Positions 50,651-57,366 of a DNA stretch of 64,000 nucleotides are shown piece by piece. Every line of letters starts with the position of its first letter. Position 1 is the first letter of the stretch. Both the position numbers and the translations under genes were made by a program. Under the pieces are notes generated by a model. The model did no database searches. It saw nothing but the letters and a program-made list of their open reading frames with translations, and was not told the DNA's origin. The stretch covers positions 15,303 through 79,302 of IMG/VR virus record IMGVR_UViG_3300027782_000066; one strand, 5' to 3'. The DNA is from a virus.

Positions 50651-51638
50651 TACGAAGTACATCAATCTCATTTCTCCACAACTCGTAAAGTTTGCAAAGA
50701 AAAAAGAAGATTTATATACTTTCAGATGCCCCTATTGCGGCGATTCTTCAAAGAATCGTAACAAAACTAGGGGTTATTTTTATCGGAAACGTTCGGATTA
50801 TTTTTTCAAGTGTCACAACTGTGGGCAGGGCAGGACGCTTACAAATTTCCTGAAGGATAATTCCCCCCTACTCCACGATGAATACGTTATGGAGCGGTAT
50901 ATGGAGGGTCTGACGGGCAAAGCAACGAACACTCCCGACCCCAAATTTAATATCAAACCTCCAGTATTCAAAAAAAATGAACAGTCAGAAGATGAAAATA
51001 TTTTTTCAAATCTTAAGAAAATATCAGATCTAAATAATACACATCCCGCCAAAGAGTATCTCATAAATCGTAGAATTCCAGAGAAATATTTCTCAAATTT
51101 CTATTACATAGAGGACTTTAATGCTTGGGCTTGTTTGGAAAATACTCAACAAGAGTCAAGAATTGTCATCCCATTATTTACGACAGAAGGAAAAGTATTT
51201 GGATATCAAGGTAGATCCTTGAATAAAAATACAAAGTTACGTTATATCACTACCATACTAGATAAAGGATATCCTAAAGTATTCGGCCTCAATAATGTAA
51301 ACCCTTTAGAGAAAATATATGTCACAGAAGGACCATTTGATTCATTATTCCTACAAAATGCCATCGCAATGTGTGGATCTGATGTTACCCTTGATCAGTT
51401 TAAATTCACTGATGTTGTTTATGTTTTGGACAATGAACCCAGAAATAAACAGATCGTTGATAGATATGAAAAACTCATTGATCAAGGTAGATGTATAGTT
51501 ATCTGGGATTCTGAAATTAAAGAAAAAGATATTAATGATATGGCGCTGGCTGGACGAGACGTTCGAAGTGTGGTAGAATGTAGTGCCTATCAAGGACTAG
51601 AAGCAAAAATCAAATTAACCTCCTGGAAAAAAGTATGA
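50637..51638 (+). CDS. gp61: DNA primase gp61
   Basis: Start at MSYIDTKY (50637); CPYCGDS...CHNC zinc finger; TOPRIM EGPFDS and DNEPRN. Confidence 0.96.
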   Translation: MSYIDTKYINLISPQLVKFAKKKEDLYTFRCPYCGDSSKNRNKTRGYFYRKRSDYFFKCHNCGQGRTLTNFLKDNSPLLHDEYVMERYMEGLTGKATNTPDPKFNIKPPVFKKNEQSEDENIFSNLKKISDLNNTHPAKEYLINRRIPEKYFSNFYYIEDFNAWACLENTQQESRIVIPLFTTEGKVFGYQGRSLNKNTKLRYITTILDKGYPKVFGLNNVNPLEKIYVTEGPFDSLFLQNAIAMCGSDVTLDQFKFTDVVYVLDNEPRNKQIVDRYEKLIDQGRCIVIWDSEIKEKDINDMALAGRDVRSVVECSAYQGLEAKIKLTSWKKV

Positions 51639-53950
51639 GTAACGGAATTAAAGTTGTAAAGCGTAGTGGAACAATCGAACCTTTGGATCTAGACAAAATT
51701 CATTCTATGGTTGATTGTGCGTGTGGTGGTCTCTCTGGAGTTTCTGCATCACAAGTTGAAATGCAATCTGGCATTCAATTTTATGATGGAATTACAACTG
51801 ATCAAATTCAGGAAATTTTAATTCGTTCTGCCAGTGATCTTATTTCTTTAGATAATCCTAATTATCAATTTGTTGCAGCACGTTTATTGTTGTTCGGACT
51901 ATACAAACAAGTATTTGGAGAAGATTGGAATCAAGGATTTCCCTCAATTCAAGGAGTTCTACTTATTGGGGTTCAAAAAGAAATCTATGACTCAGAATTA
52001 ATCTATAAGTATTCTGATGAAGAATGGAATAAAATTAATAATTTCATTGTTCATAATCGTGACTACTTGTTTACCTATGCTGGCCTCAGGCAAGTTGTTG
52101 ATAAATATCTTGTACAAGATCGTAGCAATGGTGGAGTATATGAAACTCCTCAGTATGCTTATATGTTAGTTGCAGCAACTATTTTTGCTGAGTATCCAAA
52201 ACAAACACGATTAGATTATGTAAAAAAGTATTATGATGCAATCTCAAAACACAGAATCAATGTACCAACACCCATCCTCGCAGGAGTTAGAACACCACTT
52301 AGACAATTTGCGTCTTGTGTTCTTATTGATAGTGATGACACCCTCGACAGTATCTTTAGCAGTGACATGGCTATTGGTCGTTATGTTGCACAACGCGCAG
52401 GCATTGGTATCAACGCAGGCAGAATCCGTGCTCTCAATAGTAAAATCAGAGGGGGAGAAGTTTCTCATACGGGGGTTATCCCATTCCTCAAAAAGTTTGA
52501 ATCAACTGTCAGATGCTGTACACAGAACGGGATTCGTGGTGGAAGTGCTACTGTCCATTTTCCAATCTGGCACAGAGAAATAGGAGATATTATTGTTCTC
52601 AAAAATAATAAAGGCACTGAAGATAATAGAGTTCGTAAACTAGATTACAGTATTCAGATTTCTAAATTATTCTATGAAAGATTTATTAAGAATGAATCAA
52701 TTTCTCTCTTTTCTCCTCACGATGTTCCTGATTTGTCGGACGCTTTTGGTCTTCCTAATTTCGATGAGTTGTATGTACGTTACGAAGAAGATAGTTTTAT
52801 TCCTAAGAAAACTGTCAACGCTCAAGAACTTATTCTTGACATCTTAAAAGAGAGAGCAGAGACTGGTCGTATCTATATTATGAATATCGACCACTGTAAC
52901 GAGCATTCTTCTTTCAAAGATAAAGTTTGGATGAGTAATCTTTGTCAAGAGATTACACTTCCCACTACACCACTAAAGCACATTGATGACCCAGAAGGTG
53001 AGATTGCTCTCTGTATTCTTTCTGCTATTAACATAGGAAAAATTAAATCTGATGAAGAGTTTGAATCCCTGTGTGATTTAAGTGTACGTTCATTGGATGA
53101 ATTGATTGATTATCAGCACTATCCAGTAGCAGCAGCTGAAAAATCTACTAAAGCACGTAGGTCTTTGGGTGTTGGTTATATTGGTCTTGCTCATTATCTA
53201 GCAAAACTTGGTTATAATTATAACTCTCAAGAGGCGTGGGATGCCATTCATGAACTGACTGAATCATTTCAATACTTTTTACTGAAAGCATCCAACAATC
53301 TTGCTAAAGAGAAAGGACGTTGTGAATATTTTGATCGCACTAAATATGCTGATGGCATTCTTCCTATAGATACCTATAAAAAAGATGTAGACCAAATTGT
53401 ATCACACAAACTTAATTATGAATGGGAATCTCTTAGAGCATCTATCATTGAATACGGTCTTAGGAACTCAACACTGTCGGCACAAATGCCTTCGGAGAGC
53501 AGTTCCGTTGTGTCAAATGCAACTAATGGAATTGAACCACCTCGCGCATACTTGTCCATTAAGAAGTCAAAAAAAGGTCCACTCAAACAAATTGTTCCAC
53601 AGTATGCAACTCTCAAGAACAACTATACTCTTCTTTGGGATATGCCTGACAATAGCGGGTATATTAACATTGTCGCCATCATGCAAAAGTTCTTTGATCA
53701 AGCAATCAGTGGAAACTGGTCATACAATCCAGAAAACTACCCAGATAACGAAGTGCCAGTAAGTGTAATTGCAAATGATTTACTTAAGACCTACAAGTAT
53801 GGTTGGAAAACAAGTTATTATCAGAACACTTATGACAGTAAGACCGATGCAATTGAAACTGAAGAATTCAAAAAAGAAAATATTCAAAGTTTAGTTAAAA
53901 ATATTTTAAATTCATCAGAGGAGGAAGCTTGTGACAGTTGTTCAATTTGA
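51635..53950 (+). CDS. nrdA: Ribonucleotide reductase class Ia alpha subunit
   Basis: ATP cone; PTPILAG; ASCVL; SNLCQEI; C-terminal CDSC. Confidence 0.98.
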   Translation: MSNGIKVVKRSGTIEPLDLDKIHSMVDCACGGLSGVSASQVEMQSGIQFYDGITTDQIQEILIRSASDLISLDNPNYQFVAARLLLFGLYKQVFGEDWNQGFPSIQGVLLIGVQKEIYDSELIYKYSDEEWNKINNFIVHNRDYLFTYAGLRQVVDKYLVQDRSNGGVYETPQYAYMLVAATIFAEYPKQTRLDYVKKYYDAISKHRINVPTPILAGVRTPLRQFASCVLIDSDDTLDSIFSSDMAIGRYVAQRAGIGINAGRIRALNSKIRGGEVSHTGVIPFLKKFESTVRCCTQNGIRGGSATVHFPIWHREIGDIIVLKNNKGTEDNRVRKLDYSIQISKLFYERFIKNESISLFSPHDVPDLSDAFGLPNFDELYVRYEEDSFIPKKTVNAQELILDILKERAETGRIYIMNIDHCNEHSSFKDKVWMSNLCQEITLPTTPLKHIDDPEGEIALCILSAINIGKIKSDEEFESLCDLSVRSLDELIDYQHYPVAAAEKSTKARRSLGVGYIGLAHYLAKLGYNYNSQEAWDAIHELTESFQYFLLKASNNLAKEKGRCEYFDRTKYADGILPIDTYKKDVDQIVSHKLNYEWESLRASIIEYGLRNSTLSAQMPSESSSVVSNATNGIEPPRAYLSIKKSKKGPLKQIVPQYATLKNNYTLLWDMPDNSGYINIVAIMQKFFDQAISGNWSYNPENYPDNEVPVSVIANDLLKTYKYGWKTSYYQNTYDSKTDAIETEEFKKENIQSLVKNILNSSEEEACDSCSI

Positions 53951-55109
53951 AACTAATAACGAAAACAAAATAAAAGGACTAACAGTTTTTAATAAAGAGA
54001 TAATTGATTCTAAGAAGCAACCAATGTTCTTTGGTGCTCCTTTGGGTGTTCAAAGATATGATTCTTATAAGTATCCTGTCTTTGATAAACTTACTCAGAC
54101 ACAACTCGGATATTTCTGGAGACCCGAAGAAATATCTCTTCAGAAAGATCGTGCTGATTATCAAAATCTTCGATCAGAACAAAAACATATCTTTACTTCT
54201 AACTTGAAGTATCAGATTATGCTTGATAGCGTTCAGGGTCGTGGTCCTGGTATGGCATTCACTCCTTATTGTTCTCTACCAGAACTAGAAGCTTGTATGC
54301 AAGTATGGGGACTTATGGAGATGATTCATAGTCGCTCTTATACATACATTATTAAGAATATCTATTCAGATCCTGCTGAAGTATTTGATACTATTCTGAC
54401 TGATGATATGATTCTTTCTCGTGCTGAAAGTGTCACTAAAGCATATGATGATTTCATTAATGATGCTCATGCTTATGGTACTAGTGAGCGTTGGCTTCAT
54501 AATCTAGAAGGTGTTCCATCTGCTAAACTTGATCTTTATGAAGTTAAAAGAAAACTTTATCGTGCTATTGTAAATGTAAATATCCTGGAGGGGATTAGGT
54601 TCTATGTTTCGTTCGCATGTTCATTCGCTTTTGGCGAACTTAAACTTATGGAGGGATCCGCTAAAATTATCTCTCTCATCTCAAGAGACGAAAATCAGCA
54701 TCTTGTTCTTACACAGAACATTATCAATAAATGGCGTGAAGGGGATGATCCAGACATGCTCAAAATCGCTGCAGAAGAAGAACAGTGGGTTTATCAAACG
54801 TTTGATGGAGCGGTAAACGAAGAAAAAGTTTGGGCAGATTACTTATTTAAAAATGGTAGTATGATCGGACTAAATTCTAAACTATTAGTACAGTATGTTG
54901 AGTGGATTGCAAACCGTCGCATGAGGTCAATTGGACTTAAACCACAGTATGATATCGCTGCTAAAAATAATCCTCTTCCCTGGACGGAGCATTGGATTAG
55001 TTCTAAGGGTCTTCAGGTTGCTCCTCAGGAAACTGAAGTTGAATCTTATGTCGTTGGCGGAATTAAACAAGACGTTAAAGCAAATACTTTCTCTGGGTTC
55101 ACCCTCTAA
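53931..55109 (+). CDS. nrdB: Ribonucleotide reductase class Ia beta subunit
   Basis: FWRPEE; DSVQGR; EMIHSRSY; EGIRFYVSF; DENQH; APQETE. Confidence 0.98.
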   Translation: MTVVQFETNNENKIKGLTVFNKEIIDSKKQPMFFGAPLGVQRYDSYKYPVFDKLTQTQLGYFWRPEEISLQKDRADYQNLRSEQKHIFTSNLKYQIMLDSVQGRGPGMAFTPYCSLPELEACMQVWGLMEMIHSRSYTYIIKNIYSDPAEVFDTILTDDMILSRAESVTKAYDDFINDAHAYGTSERWLHNLEGVPSAKLDLYEVKRKLYRAIVNVNILEGIRFYVSFACSFAFGELKLMEGSAKIISLISRDENQHLVLTQNIINKWREGDDPDMLKIAAEEEQWVYQTFDGAVNEEKVWADYLFKNGSMIGLNSKLLVQYVEWIANRRMRSIGLKPQYDIAAKNNPLPWTEHWISSKGLQVAPQETEVESYVVGGIKQDVKANTFSGFTL

Positions 55110-55120
55110 TAAATCACAAA

Positions 55121-55579
55121 TTAAAACATATCAACCAATCCCAGATCCCTGGTACGATTGAATAGATTTTTTTTTGTTTCTTCTGAATGTTCTGATTTAG
55201 GAATAAATTTTATAGCTGCTATTGAAGCATTATACCAAATTCTTTCTCTATTAATATCTCTTTCTACTAATACATTATTTTTATGTTGAAGATTTGTTTC
55301 GGCATAAGTTAGATCTCCTCTCGTTTTACATTCAAATAATATTTCAAAGTAAAAATTGTCCATACTAAATTTTTTAATATCTTCTTTCAAATACTTTGAT
55401 GAAGAAAAATACTTTTTCCAGTCAGATTCTTTATTCTTTTTGTTAAATTTGTAAGTATAGTATTGTTTTTTACCAATATATTTTTTATTAGTTATAATAT
55501 TTTTCACATAGTAAATAAACCCAAATGAATTAACTGGATCTAAAATGAAACTATGATTCCAGTGTTCTGTTTTAAACAT
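55121..55579 (-). mobile_element. Free-standing GIY-YIG (Seg-like) homing endonuclease gene
   Basis: GFIYYVKNIITNKKYIGKK; YFSSS; WYN; partial NUMOD3-like HSEETKK; the only minus-strand gene, very AT-rich. Confidence 0.75.
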
Positions 55580-55637
55580 TTAATATAAAAATATTGATAC
55601 AATTATCTATGACAGTAAATAATTTTTTTAGGGGGGC

Positions 55638-55666
55638 TTGACAAAAGCTAAATAATTTCATATAAT
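55638..55666 (+). promoter_or_regulatory. Consensus sigma70 promoter
   Basis: TTGACA-N17-TATAAT; spacer contains CTAAATA. Confidence 0.88.
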
Positions 55667-55670
55667 GCTT

Positions 55671-55699
55671 AAGCAGTCCTTAATAAGATTGCTTTTTTT
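55671..55699 (+). terminator. Terminator-like hairpin directly after the promoter
   Basis: AAGCAGTC-N8-GATTGCTT followed by a T-run. Confidence 0.6.
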
Positions 55700-55724
55700 A
55701 TTATGAGATTTTGACGTGACAACC

Positions 55725-55791
55725 TAGAGCCGTGGAAGATGCCCTTCGAGAGAGGTGGTATACCCCTCTTCTATACGGATGCCGAATTCTA
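55725..55791 (+). ncRNA. Structured RNA element, tentatively abiF-motif-like
   Basis: Nested stems UAGAG/UUCUA, CCGU-GGAAGA/UCUUCU-(AU)-ACGG, UGCC/GGUA, and CUUC-GAGA-GAGG with a GNRA loop; family name from recollection only. Confidence 0.55.
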
Positions 55792-55800
55792 TTAAACTTA

Positions 55801-56439
55801 ATGCTACTATCAACAATTACTGCCCTAACAGTCTCAACTGCGTTTGCGTCACCACTCTTAATACCAGTGAGTGCTCCACCAGTGCCTGAGAAAGAAAGTT
55901 TAGAACTTACTGTTCGAGACTTATCAAATCAGAGAGACACCAAACAATCAAAGGTCGAAAAACTAGAGAAAATTTGGAAATGTACAGGGTGTAATCAAAC
56001 AGAAACTTATGCTTTGAGTTACTTGCAAAAACAAGGAATCAAAGATAAGAATGCTCTAGCAACCATCATGGGTAATATCAAACAGGAATCTGGATTTGTT
56101 CCTAATATCTGTGAGGGTGGGTCTAGAGTTTCCTACCAAGGATGTGGAAGCGGTGGTTACGGATTAATCCAGTGGACCGATTCTACACGATATGATGGAT
56201 TGGGAAGACATGCTGCCCGTATGGGTGCCAGTGCTTCTACACTTGATACTCAACTCAACTATATGTTGAATGAGGGTGATTGGAAAATGATTGAACCAAG
56301 AATGAAAACTCCTGGTAAATCAATTGACCAGTATATGTACTACGCAAGTAAGTGGATACGCTGGGGACATCACGGAGCAAGAACTGACTTTGCTTATAAC
56401 TACGCAAAGAAAATGGTTCTTACAGAAGTAGATGCTTAA
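55801..56439 (+). CDS. Phage-tail-lysozyme-type peptidoglycan hydrolase with N-terminal signal peptide
   Basis: ATG at 55801 (MLLSTITALTVSTAFA); ATIMGNIKQESG...GYGLIQWT...QLNY. Confidence 0.8.
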   Translation: MLLSTITALTVSTAFASPLLIPVSAPPVPEKESLELTVRDLSNQRDTKQSKVEKLEKIWKCTGCNQTETYALSYLQKQGIKDKNALATIMGNIKQESGFVPNICEGGSRVSYQGCGSGGYGLIQWTDSTRYDGLGRHAARMGASASTLDTQLNYMLNEGDWKMIEPRMKTPGKSIDQYMYYASKWIRWGHHGARTDFAYNYAKKMVLTEVDA

Positions 56440-56474
56440 TTGAATAAATAACGGGGAGTGGCGCTCCCCTTACT

Positions 56475-56885
56475 ATGTTTAACTTTAACTTTGGAAAGAA
56501 GAAGCCAGATATAAAACAATACGCTATAATCAGTATAGTATTAACAACTATTATCGCCACTCTTTCTCAATGTACTGGTATATCTCAAACTAATATCTGG
56601 GATATACTTGATGAAGTCCAAAGAAAATATTTTCCACAAACTATATTAAATGAGTTTATCATCAAAGACTCAGAGAAATTAGACAGAAGAATTCATAGAG
56701 ATGTTGATCAAGCAATTGCAGAGTACGAACGCTTGATAGGCGAAAACGAGAAAGTTAGAATACCTCCACCACGATACTCAGAGACCCCACTGGATGCCTC
56801 TGTATGCCACACTAATGAGTGTCGGTCACTGGGAGGGGAAATCAGGTTATGTGCTCCTTGGGTTGACGGATGTCCCAATGAGTAG
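56475..56885 (+). CDS. Hypothetical membrane-anchored protein
   Basis: N-terminal TM segment; C-terminal Cys cluster; AATAAATA at 56443. Confidence 0.7.
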   Translation: MFNFNFGKKKPDIKQYAIISIVLTTIIATLSQCTGISQTNIWDILDEVQRKYFPQTILNEFIIKDSEKLDRRIHRDVDQAIAEYERLIGENEKVRIPPPRYSETPLDASVCHTNECRSLGGEIRLCAPWVDGCPNE

Positions 56886-56891: not shown

Positions 56892-56900
56892 ATTGTTATT

Positions 56901-56982
56901 GGGTAGGTGTCCGAGTGGTTAATGGAAGCGGACTGTAAATCCGCTGGCTCTGCCTACGGGGGTTCAAATCCCTCCCTGCCCA
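56901..56982 (+). tRNA. trnY: tRNA-Tyr(GTA)
   Basis: Cloverleaf, anticodon loop CTGTAAA, long variable arm, TTCAAAT T-loop; no encoded CCA. Confidence 0.95.
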
Positions 56983-56986
56983 TCTT

Positions 56987-57059
56987 GGGTCAATAACTCA
57001 GTTGGTAGAGTAGCGGGCTTTTAACCTGTAAGTCGTGAGTTCGAGTCTCACTTGACCCA
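56987..57059 (+). tRNA. trnK: tRNA-Lys(TTT)
   Basis: GGGTCAA/TTGACCC acceptor stem, loop CTTTTAA. Confidence 0.93.
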
Positions 57060-57062
57060 CTT

Positions 57063-57134
57063 GGGAAATTAGCTTAGGGGTAGAGCATTCGACTGATAAT
57101 CGAAAGGTCGATGGTTCAAATCCATCATTTCCCA
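57063..57134 (+). tRNA. trnI: tRNA-Ile(GAT)
   Basis: GGGAAAT/ATTTCCC acceptor stem, loop CTGATAA. Confidence 0.93.
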
Positions 57135-57135
57135 C

Positions 57136-57164
57136 TTGACAATCAAATCCATAACTGGTATGAT
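57136..57164 (+). promoter_or_regulatory. Sigma70-type promoter inside the tRNA cluster
   Basis: TTGACA-N17-TATGAT; overlapped by inverted repeat ACAATCA/TGATTGT. Confidence 0.75.
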
Positions 57165-57172
57165 TGTTTTAT

Positions 57173-57246
57173 GTCTCAGTAGCACAGCGGATTAGTGCAA
57201 CATCCTTCTAAGATGTGGGTCGGGGGTTCGAATCCCTCCTGAGACG
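57173..57246 (+). tRNA. trnR: tRNA-Arg(TCT)
   Basis: GTCTCAG/CTGAGAC acceptor stem, loop CTTCTAA. Confidence 0.93.
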
Positions 57247-57252
57247 TATCAT

Positions 57253-57324
57253 TCCCCTTTGGCGCAGCGGTAGCGCAAACGACTGTTAATCGTAGGGTCT
57301 CTGGTTCGAATCCAGAAAGGGGAG
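57253..57324 (+). tRNA. trnN: tRNA-Asn(GTT)
   Basis: TCCCCTT/AAGGGGA acceptor stem, loop CTGTTAA. Confidence 0.93.
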
Positions 57325-57366
57325 TTTAAAATTATCGTTGATATATACAATAGAATATTTAATATA

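What the first reader, a model, noticed from the sequence alone, without database searches (positions are those of the whole stretch)
55725..55800. Structured abiF-like RNA in front of an exported lysozyme-like gene
Seen: a ~67-nt nested stem-loop with a GAGA tetraloop ending 9 nt before the ATG at 55801, with no clear SD. My identification with the Rfam abiF motif (reported in cyanophages) is tentative. Established: bacterial AbiF is a HEPN RNase paired with an RNA antitoxin. No AbiF-like gene is recognisable in this window. Inference: either a phage decoy antitoxin RNA or a cis-regulator of the hydrolase.
Basis: partly seen in the sequence, partly recalled or inferred. Interest (0 to 1): 0.7.

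Follow-up and report, generated by a model that had tools for sequence, protein, structure and literature searches.

The report
Cyanophage wall-hydrolase leader RNA hairpin
The stem-loop is a real, evolutionarily maintained RNA hairpin that hundreds of freshwater cyanobacterial viruses keep just ahead of their one exported cell-wall-cutting enzyme gene; it is not the abiF RNA, matches no catalogued RNA family, and probably controls translation of the enzyme.

Summary
The stem-loop is real but it is not abiF. Rfam (4,227 families, including RF03085 abiF) gives no hit here or in ten relatives. The record has no Abi_2 gene.

Alone, the fold is no better than shuffles (z -0.22). However, over 120 IMG/VR contigs and phages S-SRM01 and DSL-LC03 carry the same 56-60-nt core. 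Its hairpin lies at 55730-55778. It has P1 CCGU/ACGG, P1b, a one-sided pyrimidine-rich internal loop, P2 and a GNRA loop. 95% of cells pair, 10-13 of 16 pairs show compensatory changes, and 0/500 shuffles reach this.

The element is single-copy per genome and was found only on phage DNA. It ends 22 nt before the SD-less start of an exported wall-hydrolase gene. That gene is a Phage_lysozyme2 protein or, in other phages, an unrelated RlpA-like DPBB protein. GTG 55732 is not a conserved start.

The hairpin is part of a ~130-nt leader behind an overlapping early/late promoter and a PeSL-type hairpin. A marine S-T4 clade keeps only the flanks and P1, so a ligand pocket is unlikely. I favour a translational operator, but the mechanism is untested. 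The scan found this same leader before on other genomes.

The parts
55638..55666 (+). Overlapping early and late promoter: TTGACA-N17-TATAAT, with the late-promoter core CTAAATA (55648-55654) in the spacer
   Evidence: 12/12 match to the consensus. 103 of 107 distinct relatives score 10/12 or better, and 103 of 107 carry TAAATA inside the promoter. It is the only such composite in the 64-kb window. The NATAAATA late motif and overlapping early/late promoters of cyanomyoviruses are described in PMC2984593.
55671..55700 (+). Promoter-proximal 8-bp hairpin followed by a U run (PeSL-type stem-loop), starting at about the +1 of the early promoter
   Evidence: Found by the terminator scan. Relatives keep a hairpin here with different stems, and some relatives lack the U run. 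PeSL cassettes (a sigma70 promoter plus a terminator-like stem-loop) are described in PMC2839356.
55703..55714 (+). Conserved box WUUAUGAG-N4-UGA, readable as a 3-codon mini-ORF (AUG AGA UUU UGA); a second UGA lies at 55717-55719
   Evidence: ATG-N6-TGA is present in 93 of 107 distinct relatives, with varied peptides (MSL, MRF, MRL and others). The other 14 have no such ORF; the ATT-for-ATG variants seen are among them. Whether it is translated is unknown.
55725..55729 (+). 5' flank UAGAG, single-stranded and invariant in the freshwater clade
   Evidence: 103 of 105 distinct sequences taken with a relaxed pattern have TAGAG. The GAG is also kept in the S-T4 clade and in the second form.
55730..55778 (+). 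The conserved hairpin. P1 is CCGU 55730-33 with ACGG 55775-78. The AU bulge is at 55773-74. P1b is GGAAGA 55734-39 with UCUUCU 55767-72. UG is at 55740-41. P2 is CCCUUC 55742-47 with GAGG(U)GG 55752-58. The GNRA loop GAGA is at 55748-51. The 3' internal loop UAUACCCC is at 55759-66.
   Evidence: The covariance model scores 89.9 bits here, E 6e-20. 62 distinct cores nearly all fold the same way. P1b and P2 covary; for example one P1b pair is A-U 67, G-C 12, C-G 11 and U-A 8. P1 covaries between clades: CCGU/ACGG, CCAC/GUGG and CAGU/ACUG.
55779..55800 (+). Conserved AUG followed by a 19-nt A/U-rich, SD-less translation initiation region (NN-GARUUC-WAUU...)
   Evidence: The start codon lies exactly 19 nt after ...GGAUG in 120 of 122 loci. 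The same stretch is kept, 1 nt shorter, in the S-T4 clade. There the upstream AUG is in frame with the start; here it is out of frame. Conservation is therefore at the RNA level, not the protein level. This is the only exact copy in the window.
55801..56439 (+). Regulated gene: a 212-aa protein with an N-terminal hydrophobic signal-like segment and a Phage_lysozyme2 domain
   Evidence: Pfam PF18013, E 4.7e-18. phrog_512, E 1.7e-67. Homologues follow the motif in 94 of 122 loci, and an unrelated DPBB_1 protein follows it in about 23.

Best explanation
The element is the core of a conserved ~130-nt 5' leader of the phage's single exported peptidoglycan-hydrolase gene. It acts in cis on translation initiation.

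Shown: the mRNA strand can form a hairpin (P1, P1b, a one-sided internal loop, P2, a GNRA loop) that evolution maintains. The base of the hairpin and its single-stranded flanks (GAG on the 5' side, AUG-NN-GARUUC on the 3' side) are almost invariant. They sit at a fixed 19-22 nt from an SD-less AUG in an A/U-rich stretch, at about the 5' edge of where an initiating 30S subunit would sit (by textbook footprint sizes, my own knowledge).

Inferred: the hairpin base plus its flanks form an operator or platform recognised by a trans-acting factor. That factor could be a phage or host RNA-binding protein, or the 30S/S1 itself. It would set when and how much hydrolase is made from transcripts that start at an overlapping early/late promoter. 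This resembles the hairpin-plus-adjacent-single-strand operators of T4 genes 43 and 32 more than a metabolite-sensing riboswitch. The distal part (P1b, P2, GNRA) is a clade-specific elaboration that may stabilise or fold back onto the base.
For: Structure: covariation is strong in two independently chosen sets, and invariant or frequent G-U pairs fit an RNA of the + strand only.

Position: 79 of 80 loci chosen only by lysozyme homology carry the element directly upstream, and the 80th is cut off. The spacing to the start is fixed in 120 of 122. Five near-complete 172-241-kb phage genomes and this record each have one copy.

Functional link: the same leader precedes two non-homologous exported wall enzymes, PF18013 and PF03330. 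All three internal-loop types occur with both genes.

Core definition: the S-T4 clade and a second copy before a DPBB gene keep GAG + a 4-bp P1 (with compensatory changes) + AUG-NN-GARUUCWAUU + the start, but have quite different distal parts.

Not coding.

Transcription: contigs from two metatranscriptome studies bridge the leader and the coding sequence, for example 55678-55796, 55723-55827 and 55767-55845. This is weak evidence, because DNA carry-over is not excluded.

Precedent: the T4 gene 43 and 32 operators and RegA (PMC3014915).
Against: No binding factor is identified and nothing has been tested functionally. The start codon and TIR are not sequestered by any conserved helix, so the hairpin could equally be a passive stabiliser or insulator. 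In full-leader folding the predicted probability of P1 averages only 0.48, and the competing pairings are heterogeneous. The strong conservation of architecture and length (56-60 nt) of the distal part within the freshwater clade is not explained by an operator located at the hairpin base. The conserved mini-ORF box upstream is also unexplained.
Confidence: 0.45

Rival explanations
1. A passive structural leader. The hairpin, together with the promoter-proximal hairpin, protects the mRNA 5' region from RNases or insulates the unstructured TIR from upstream sequence. It gives robust expression without any trans-acting sensor.
For: No conserved alternative pairing with the TIR was found. The distal part is replaceable by unrelated hairpins in the S-T4 clade and in the second form. 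The stems are stable, at -12 to -23 kcal/mol.
Against: A mere stabiliser would not need a near-invariant P1 sequence, flanks, UG, GNRA loop and AU bulge across 62 or more variants while neighbouring stems drift freely. It would also not need an exact 19-nt spacing.
Confidence: 0.2
2. A riboswitch. The hairpin is an aptamer for a metabolite or second messenger related to the cell wall or to infection state, and it gates translation of the hydrolase.
For: It is associated with two non-homologous genes of one function. It has strong covariation with invariant nucleotides. It has a compact size range and a GNRA loop that could dock on the conserved base (inference).
Against: The only sizeable internal loop comes in three unrelated sequence types (ACCCC, CUUCUCC, GUGCGC). 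The whole distal part is absent in the S-T4 clade, which keeps the flanks and TIR. There is no terminator or conserved RBS-sequestering helix to act as an expression platform. The element occurs in phages only, with none in 596 Gb of bacterial genomes apart from mis-binned phage contigs.
Confidence: 0.1
3. Control coupled to the upstream mini-ORF. Ribosomes translating or terminating on AUG-AGN-NNN-UGA (55703-55714), 10 nt before UAGAG, remodel the hairpin or feed ribosomes towards the main start.
For: ATG-N6-TGA is present in 93 of 107 distinct relatives at a constrained distance, with a variable third codon. Stops follow in other frames.
Against: 14 of 107 lack the ORF; ATT-for-ATG variants are seen. 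The mini-ORF has no SD. The S-T4 clade and DSL-LC03 lack it but keep the hairpin base and TIR. The main start is about 85 nt away.
Confidence: 0.1
4. An abiF-like RNA acting as a decoy antitoxin against a host AbiF toxin.
For: Only a loose visual resemblance: a small GC-rich hairpin in a phage.
Against: RF03085 has 37 positions and gives no match at E<=1 in the record. No Rfam match was found at E<=10 on the site or in ten relatives. There is no Abi_2 gene. The fixed position in a hydrolase leader does not fit a free-standing RNA gene, and no terminator follows it.
Confidence: 0.01
5. The stretch is protein-coding: an N-terminal extension of the hydrolase starting at GTG 55732.
For: The frame is open in this window.
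Against: The frame is closed or shifted in 106 of 123 distinct relatives. TGA follows after five codons in S-SRM01 and DSL-LC03. The substitution pattern is that of paired helices, not codons.
Confidence: 0.01

Closest known systems
Translational operators of T4 genes 43 and 32 (PMC3014915)
   Same: Both have a folded RNA (a hairpin about 40 nt upstream for gene 43, a pseudoknot for gene 32) followed by single-stranded, A/U-rich sequence that runs into the ribosome-binding site. Both act in cis in a T4-type phage.
   Different: Those operators are bound by the protein that the mRNA itself encodes (DNA polymerase, ssDNA-binding protein). Here the product is an exported hydrolase that cannot plausibly autoregulate in the cytoplasm. 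There is no sequence or structure similarity, and no binding partner is known.
T4 gene e (lysozyme) inhibitory leader and its I-TevI, soc and gene 49 analogues (PMC3014915)
   Same: An RNA structure in the leader of a phage wall-lysing enzyme gene that is reached by both early and late transcription. The presumed purpose is to avoid untimely lysozyme synthesis.
   Different: In T4 the helix sequesters the SD and AUG, and the late promoter lies inside it, so late transcripts escape. Here the helix ends 22 nt before the AUG and sequesters nothing conserved, and the late-promoter core lies upstream of the whole leader.
PeSL cassettes (promoter-early stem-loops) of T4-type phages (PMC2839356)
   Same: The upstream part (55638-55700) is a consensus sigma70 promoter with an adjacent terminator-like stem-loop. 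The leader is found joined to different genes in a mosaic fashion.
   Different: PeSLs are described from coliphages RB49 and phi1 as about 50 copies per genome in front of ORFans. This composite, with an embedded late motif and followed by the conserved hairpin and TIR, occurs once per genome. PeSLs do not include the covarying hairpin.
abiF RNA motif, Rfam RF03085
   Same: A small structured RNA candidate.
   Different: It is a 37-position model with no match here, and it has a different gene context (abiF/Abi_2 genes, absent here).
Orphan cis-regulatory motifs of cyanophages in Rfam (manA, wcaG, PhotoRC, glutamine riboswitch; Weinberg et al. 2010, PMC2864571, cited from my own knowledge of the paper)
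   Same: Conserved structured leaders found mainly in cyanophage genomes and aquatic metagenomes, defined by covariation. Several have unknown ligands or mechanisms.
   Different: None of their models matches this element. The architecture and gene association are different.

Membership tests
abiF RNA motif (Rfam RF03085) | Match to the family covariance model at or near its gathering score (37 bits) | tested here: not met
   No match at E<=1 in the 79-kb record. No Rfam hit at all at E<=10 on 55580-55900 or at gathering score in the window. None in ten relatives' loci. Caveat: the RF03085 control search found the family in none of the 14 control genomes either.
abiF RNA motif (Rfam RF03085) | Genomic association with abiF (Abi_2, PF07751) genes | tested here: not met
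   No PF07751 match in the record. The downstream genes are PF18013 or PF03330 hydrolases in all loci examined.
Conserved structured RNA (generic) | Base pairs maintained by compensatory substitutions beyond controls | tested here: met
   95% of cells paired. 10/16 and 13/16 pairs have double changes, in 234 and 132 cells. 0/500 shuffles reach this, and slid controls pair 43-61%. The alignments were fitted to the model, which favours the structure, but 62 cores fold the same way de novo.
Riboswitch | Conserved ligand-binding pocket (junction or internal-loop nucleotides shared by all members) | tested here: not met
   The internal-loop 3' strand has three unrelated sequence types. The distal half is absent from the S-T4 clade and from the second form.
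Riboswitch | Expression platform: a terminator, or a helix that alternately sequesters the RBS | tested here: not met
   There is no terminator between the hairpin and the ATG. The only TIR-touching helix in the fold is broken in 56 of 105 relatives. No flank covariation was found.
Riboswitch | Direct ligand binding | not testable with these tools
   Needs in-line probing or ITC.
PeSL cassette (upstream part only) | Strong sigma70-type promoter with an adjacent terminator-like stem-loop | tested here: met
   12/12 promoter and an 8-bp hairpin plus T run, conserved in relatives. Definition taken from PMC2839356.
PeSL cassette (upstream part only) | Many dispersed copies per genome, in front of ORFans | tested here: not met
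   This composite promoter occurs once in the 64-kb window at up to 3 mismatches. The leader occurs once per genome.
T4 gene e-type inhibitory leader | SD and/or AUG sequestered in the helix, with the late promoter inside the helix's 5' strand | tested here: not met
   The conserved helix ends 22 nt upstream of the AUG. The TAAATA core lies at 55649-55654, upstream of the whole leader.
T4 gene 43/32-type translational operator | Folded element followed by a single-stranded stretch that reaches the RBS | tested here: met
   Hairpin at 55730-55778, then 22 nt of conserved A/U-rich sequence to the ATG at fixed spacing.
T4 gene 43/32-type translational operator | Specific binding of a repressor protein that blocks initiation | not testable with these tools
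   No candidate protein was identified. Needs EMSA, toeprinting or pull-down.

The most novel reading that the evidence does not exclude
The hairpin is a self-folding RNA module. Its GNRA loop would dock back onto the invariant P1/AU-bulge region across the one-sided internal loop. In this reading it does one of two things. It may recruit the 30S subunit to an SD-less start, acting as a bacterial IRES-like enhancer. Or it may sense an infection or cell-wall signal, giving phages a dedicated riboregulator for dosing a potentially suicidal wall hydrolase. Either would be a new functional RNA class restricted to phages.
Probability: 0.15. Interest if true: 0.8.

Novelty: new variant of a known kind. 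Interest (0 to 1): 0.55.

Why it matters
Structured leaders that time the synthesis of phage lysis enzymes are known from T4, but they work by hiding the ribosome-binding site. This element is a different, uncatalogued RNA architecture. It is abundant in freshwater cyanophage sequence, on 550 or more IMG/VR contigs judged by the linked gene. It has unusually clean covariation and a strict link to exported peptidoglycan hydrolases of two unrelated folds. Two cultured phages (S-SRM01 and DSL-LC03) carry it, so it can be tested experimentally. If it is a translational operator, it points to an unknown regulator of wall-hydrolase dosing in cyanophage infection. If it binds the ribosome or a ligand, it would be a new functional RNA class. 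It also deserves an Rfam entry so that it stops being misread as abiF or as a generic riboswitch.

Tried and rejected
1. abiF identity: rejected.

2. Coding from GTG 55732: rejected.

4. Pseudoknot or long-range pairing of the pyrimidine-rich internal loop or the flanks. A mutual-information scan over flanks and core found only the P1b pairs and register artefacts. The apparent link between the base 2 nt before UAGAG and the CCGAA-type TIR is not Watson-Crick.

5. A mutually exclusive 'switch' hairpin (P2 3' strand with the downstream C run). It is possible in many variants but is not maintained when P2 changes, for example in the CCCACC/GGUGGG variants.

6. Internal-loop type as a marker of the downstream gene: no relation found.

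7. TIR accessibility from partition-function folding: uninformative, with about 0.5 unpaired everywhere and heterogeneous competitors.

8. Host origin. There were only 4 exact-pattern hits in the GTDB genome collection, all on short MAG contigs that carry the same phage cassette.

9. Marine cyanophages ACG-2014d/e, S-H38 and S-TIM5. They have the lysozyme homologue, but with 8-16-nt upstream spacers or an ordinary SD, and no motif.

10. Other copies of the TIR or the composite promoter in the window: none.

11. Metatranscriptome contigs. They bridge the leader and the coding sequence. However, contigs cannot give 5' ends, strand or level, DNA carry-over is not excluded, and the lack of cover upstream of about 55622 is not evidence.

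12. Literature. The two conserved 11-mers occur in no relevant paper. The virus-wide catalogue of candidate structured RNAs (PMC10690425) does not mention a lysozyme or hydrolase leader in its text, and its supplement is not held. I therefore cannot exclude that the motif is one of its >10,000 unnamed candidates. A 2026 preprint on noncoding space does not mention phage at all.

Full report
CONTEXT. The window is part of a 79-kb IMG/VR record of a T4-like cyanophage. Around the finding lie nrdA (51635-53950) and nrdB (53931-55109). A segE-type GIY-YIG endonuclease gene sits on the minus strand (55121-55579). The gene in question runs from ATG 55801 to 56439. A phrog_3316 gene of unknown function follows, then five tRNA genes. 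The gene product has a hydrophobic N-terminal signal-like segment and a Phage_lysozyme2 domain (PF18013, E 4.7e-18).

OBSERVATION. The described stem-loop exists. On its own it is not more stable than dinucleotide shuffles (z -0.22). Rfam gives nothing on it, neither at gathering score over the window nor at E<=10 on 55580-55900. RF03085 (abiF, a 37-position model) has no match at E<=1 in the whole record, and no Abi_2 gene is present. The abiF label is therefore wrong.

COMPARISON. A distant-mode BLAST against GenBank phages showed that S-SRM01 and DSL-LC03 conserve the upstream region as well as the gene.

These gave 62 distinct 56-60-nt cores. Nearly all fold de novo into the same architecture:
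- P1, CCGU/ACGG
- a 2-nt AU bulge on the 3' side
- P1b, GG plus three or four variable pairs
- a conserved UG
- P2, five to seven pairs closed by GAGA (rarely GAAA or GGGA)
- an internal loop confined to the 3' strand

I built a covariance model from 19 equal-length members. It found exactly one copy in each of 100 sources, including the window (89.9 bits). On the resulting alignment 95% of cells pair, 10 of 16 pairs show double changes (234 cells) and 0/500 shuffles reach this. Slid controls pair only 43-61%.

Those loci were chosen by the conserved 11-mers, so I repeated the test on 80 loci chosen only by homology to the lysozyme. 79 carry the motif and the 80th is truncated. The statistics hold there too: 95% paired, 13 of 16 pairs with double changes, 0/500 shuffles. 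Invariant and frequent G-U pairs mean that the structure belongs to the + strand transcript.

WHAT IT IS ATTACHED TO. The start codon lies exactly 19 nt after the conserved ...GGAUG in 120 of 122 loci. The downstream gene is a lysozyme homologue in most loci. In about 23 loci it is a 120-aa exported RlpA-like DPBB_1 protein with no lysozyme nearby. All three internal-loop types occur with both genes.

Five near-complete phage genomes of 172-241 kb each have one copy. Among 596 Gb of bacterial and archaeal genomes, only four short MAG contigs match. All four carry the same phage cassette.

THE WHOLE LEADER. In 103 of 107 distinct relatives the leader starts at a TTGACA-N17-TATWAT promoter (score 10/12 or better), and 103 of 107 carry the late-promoter core TAAATA in its spacer. 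Overlapping early and late promoters are the proposed 'middle' mode of cyanomyoviruses (PMC2984593).

A hairpin follows, usually with a U run. This fits the PeSL description (PMC2839356), except that this composite is unique in the window.

Next comes a conserved box, WUUAUGAG-N4-UGA, which reads as a 3-codon mini-ORF in 93 of 107. Then come UAGAG, the hairpin, AUG and an A/U-rich SD-less TIR (NN-GARUUC-WAUU...).

The GTG frame through the hairpin is open and in frame in only 17 of 123 variants.

Contigs from two metatranscriptome studies bridge the leader and the coding sequence. This is weak support for co-transcription.

WHAT IS ESSENTIAL. Two natural 'deletion' forms are informative.

- The marine S-T4 clade has UUGAG-CCACC-(6-16 variable nt)-GGUGG-AUG-YYGARUUCWAUU...AUG in front of its homologue. 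P1 there is CCAC/GUGG, which is two compensatory changes from CCGU/ACGG. The TIR is one nucleotide shorter, so the conserved upstream AUG is in frame there and out of frame here. The conservation is therefore at the RNA level.
- In a few freshwater phages a DPBB gene placed after the lysozyme gene has AUGAG-CAGU-(an unrelated AU-rich hairpin)-ACUG-AUG-UAGAGUUCUAUU...AUG.

The family core is thus GAG + a 4-bp P1 + any distal hairpin + AUG-NN-GARUUCWAUU + the start codon. The elaborate P1b/P2/GNRA part is specific to the freshwater clade. Other marine cyanophages (ACG-2014d/e, S-H38, S-TIM5) have the gene without any such leader.

MECHANISM. Several points argue against a metabolite aptamer. The only sizeable internal loop is not conserved across types. 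The distal half is dispensable in related clades. No terminator or conserved RBS-sequestering helix exists.

Other points argue for sequence-specific recognition at the hairpin base next to the ribosome-binding site. These are the near-invariance of P1, its flanks, the AU bulge and the exact spacer, next to freely covarying stems.

The closest precedents are the T4 gene 43 and gene 32 translational operators, and RegA-controlled TIRs (PMC3014915). regA is a core gene of cyanomyoviruses (PMC2984593).

I therefore favour a cis-acting translational operator or platform (0.45). The rivals are a passive stabiliser or insulator (0.2), a riboswitch (0.1) and mini-ORF-coupled control (0.1). None of these has been tested. 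The conserved mini-ORF box and the conserved geometry of the distal part remain unexplained.

NOVELTY. No Rfam family matches the leader here or in ten relatives covering all forms. I found no paper describing it. I could not inspect the supplementary list of the IMG/VR-wide candidate catalogue (PMC10690425).

Earlier follow-ups in this scan reached the same leader from other genomes. Their main claims are covariation, two unrelated hydrolase genes, absence from Rfam and a PeSL-type upstream cassette. I re-tested these here and they hold.

Noticed in passing
window 55121-55579 (- strand): A segE-type GIY-YIG homing-endonuclease gene (PF19835, E 1.5e-26) sits between nrdB and the hydrolase leader. 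S-SRM01 and DSL-LC03 have other small genes at this position, so it looks like a mobile insertion.
   Followed up: partly
window 56900-57325: Cluster of five tRNA genes (Tyr-GTA, Lys-TTT, Ile-GAT, Arg-TCT, Asn-GTT) with near-consensus sigma70-like sites at 56863 and 57136. tRNA-Arg(UCU) reads AGA, the second codon of the leader's mini-ORF in about half of the relatives. This may be a coincidence.
   Followed up: no
relatives, e.g. L004, L031, L040 (upstream of the motif): In many relatives the loop of the promoter-proximal hairpin contains the same heptamer UUAUGAG that starts the mini-ORF box about 17 nt further on. No explanation was found for this duplication.
   Followed up: no
L149 1830-1899; L151 1731-1800; L028 9954-10023; L227, L228: A second, reduced copy of the leader lies directly after the lysozyme stop codon, in front of an RlpA-like DPBB gene. 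It has GAG, a 4-bp CAGU/ACUG helix around an unrelated AU-rich hairpin, then the same AUG-UAGAGUUCUAUU TIR.
   Followed up: partly
L209 1012-1064 (Synechococcus phage S-T4) and L218-L226: Minimal form of the leader in a marine clade: the flanks and a CCAC(C)/(G)GUGG helix around only 6-16 nt, with the same TIR. The upstream AUG is in frame with the annotated start there.
   Followed up: partly
L214-L217: The four genome-collection hits are short contigs binned into MAGs labelled Crocinitomicaceae, Halanaerobiales and 'bacterium'. They carry the cyanophage promoter-leader-hydrolase cassette, so they are probably mis-binned phage DNA.
   Followed up: partly
L002 356-412 (phage DSL-LC03): A near-threshold match to the glutamine riboswitch aptamer (RF01739, 34.2 bits against a gathering score of 35, E 8e-4), about 1.2 kb upstream of the hydrolase leader.
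   Followed up: no
window 56453-56469: A GC-rich 6-bp hairpin between the hydrolase stop codon (56437-56439) and the start of the next gene (ATG 56475, phrog_3316, unknown function). It scores as a terminator only on the minus strand.
   Followed up: no
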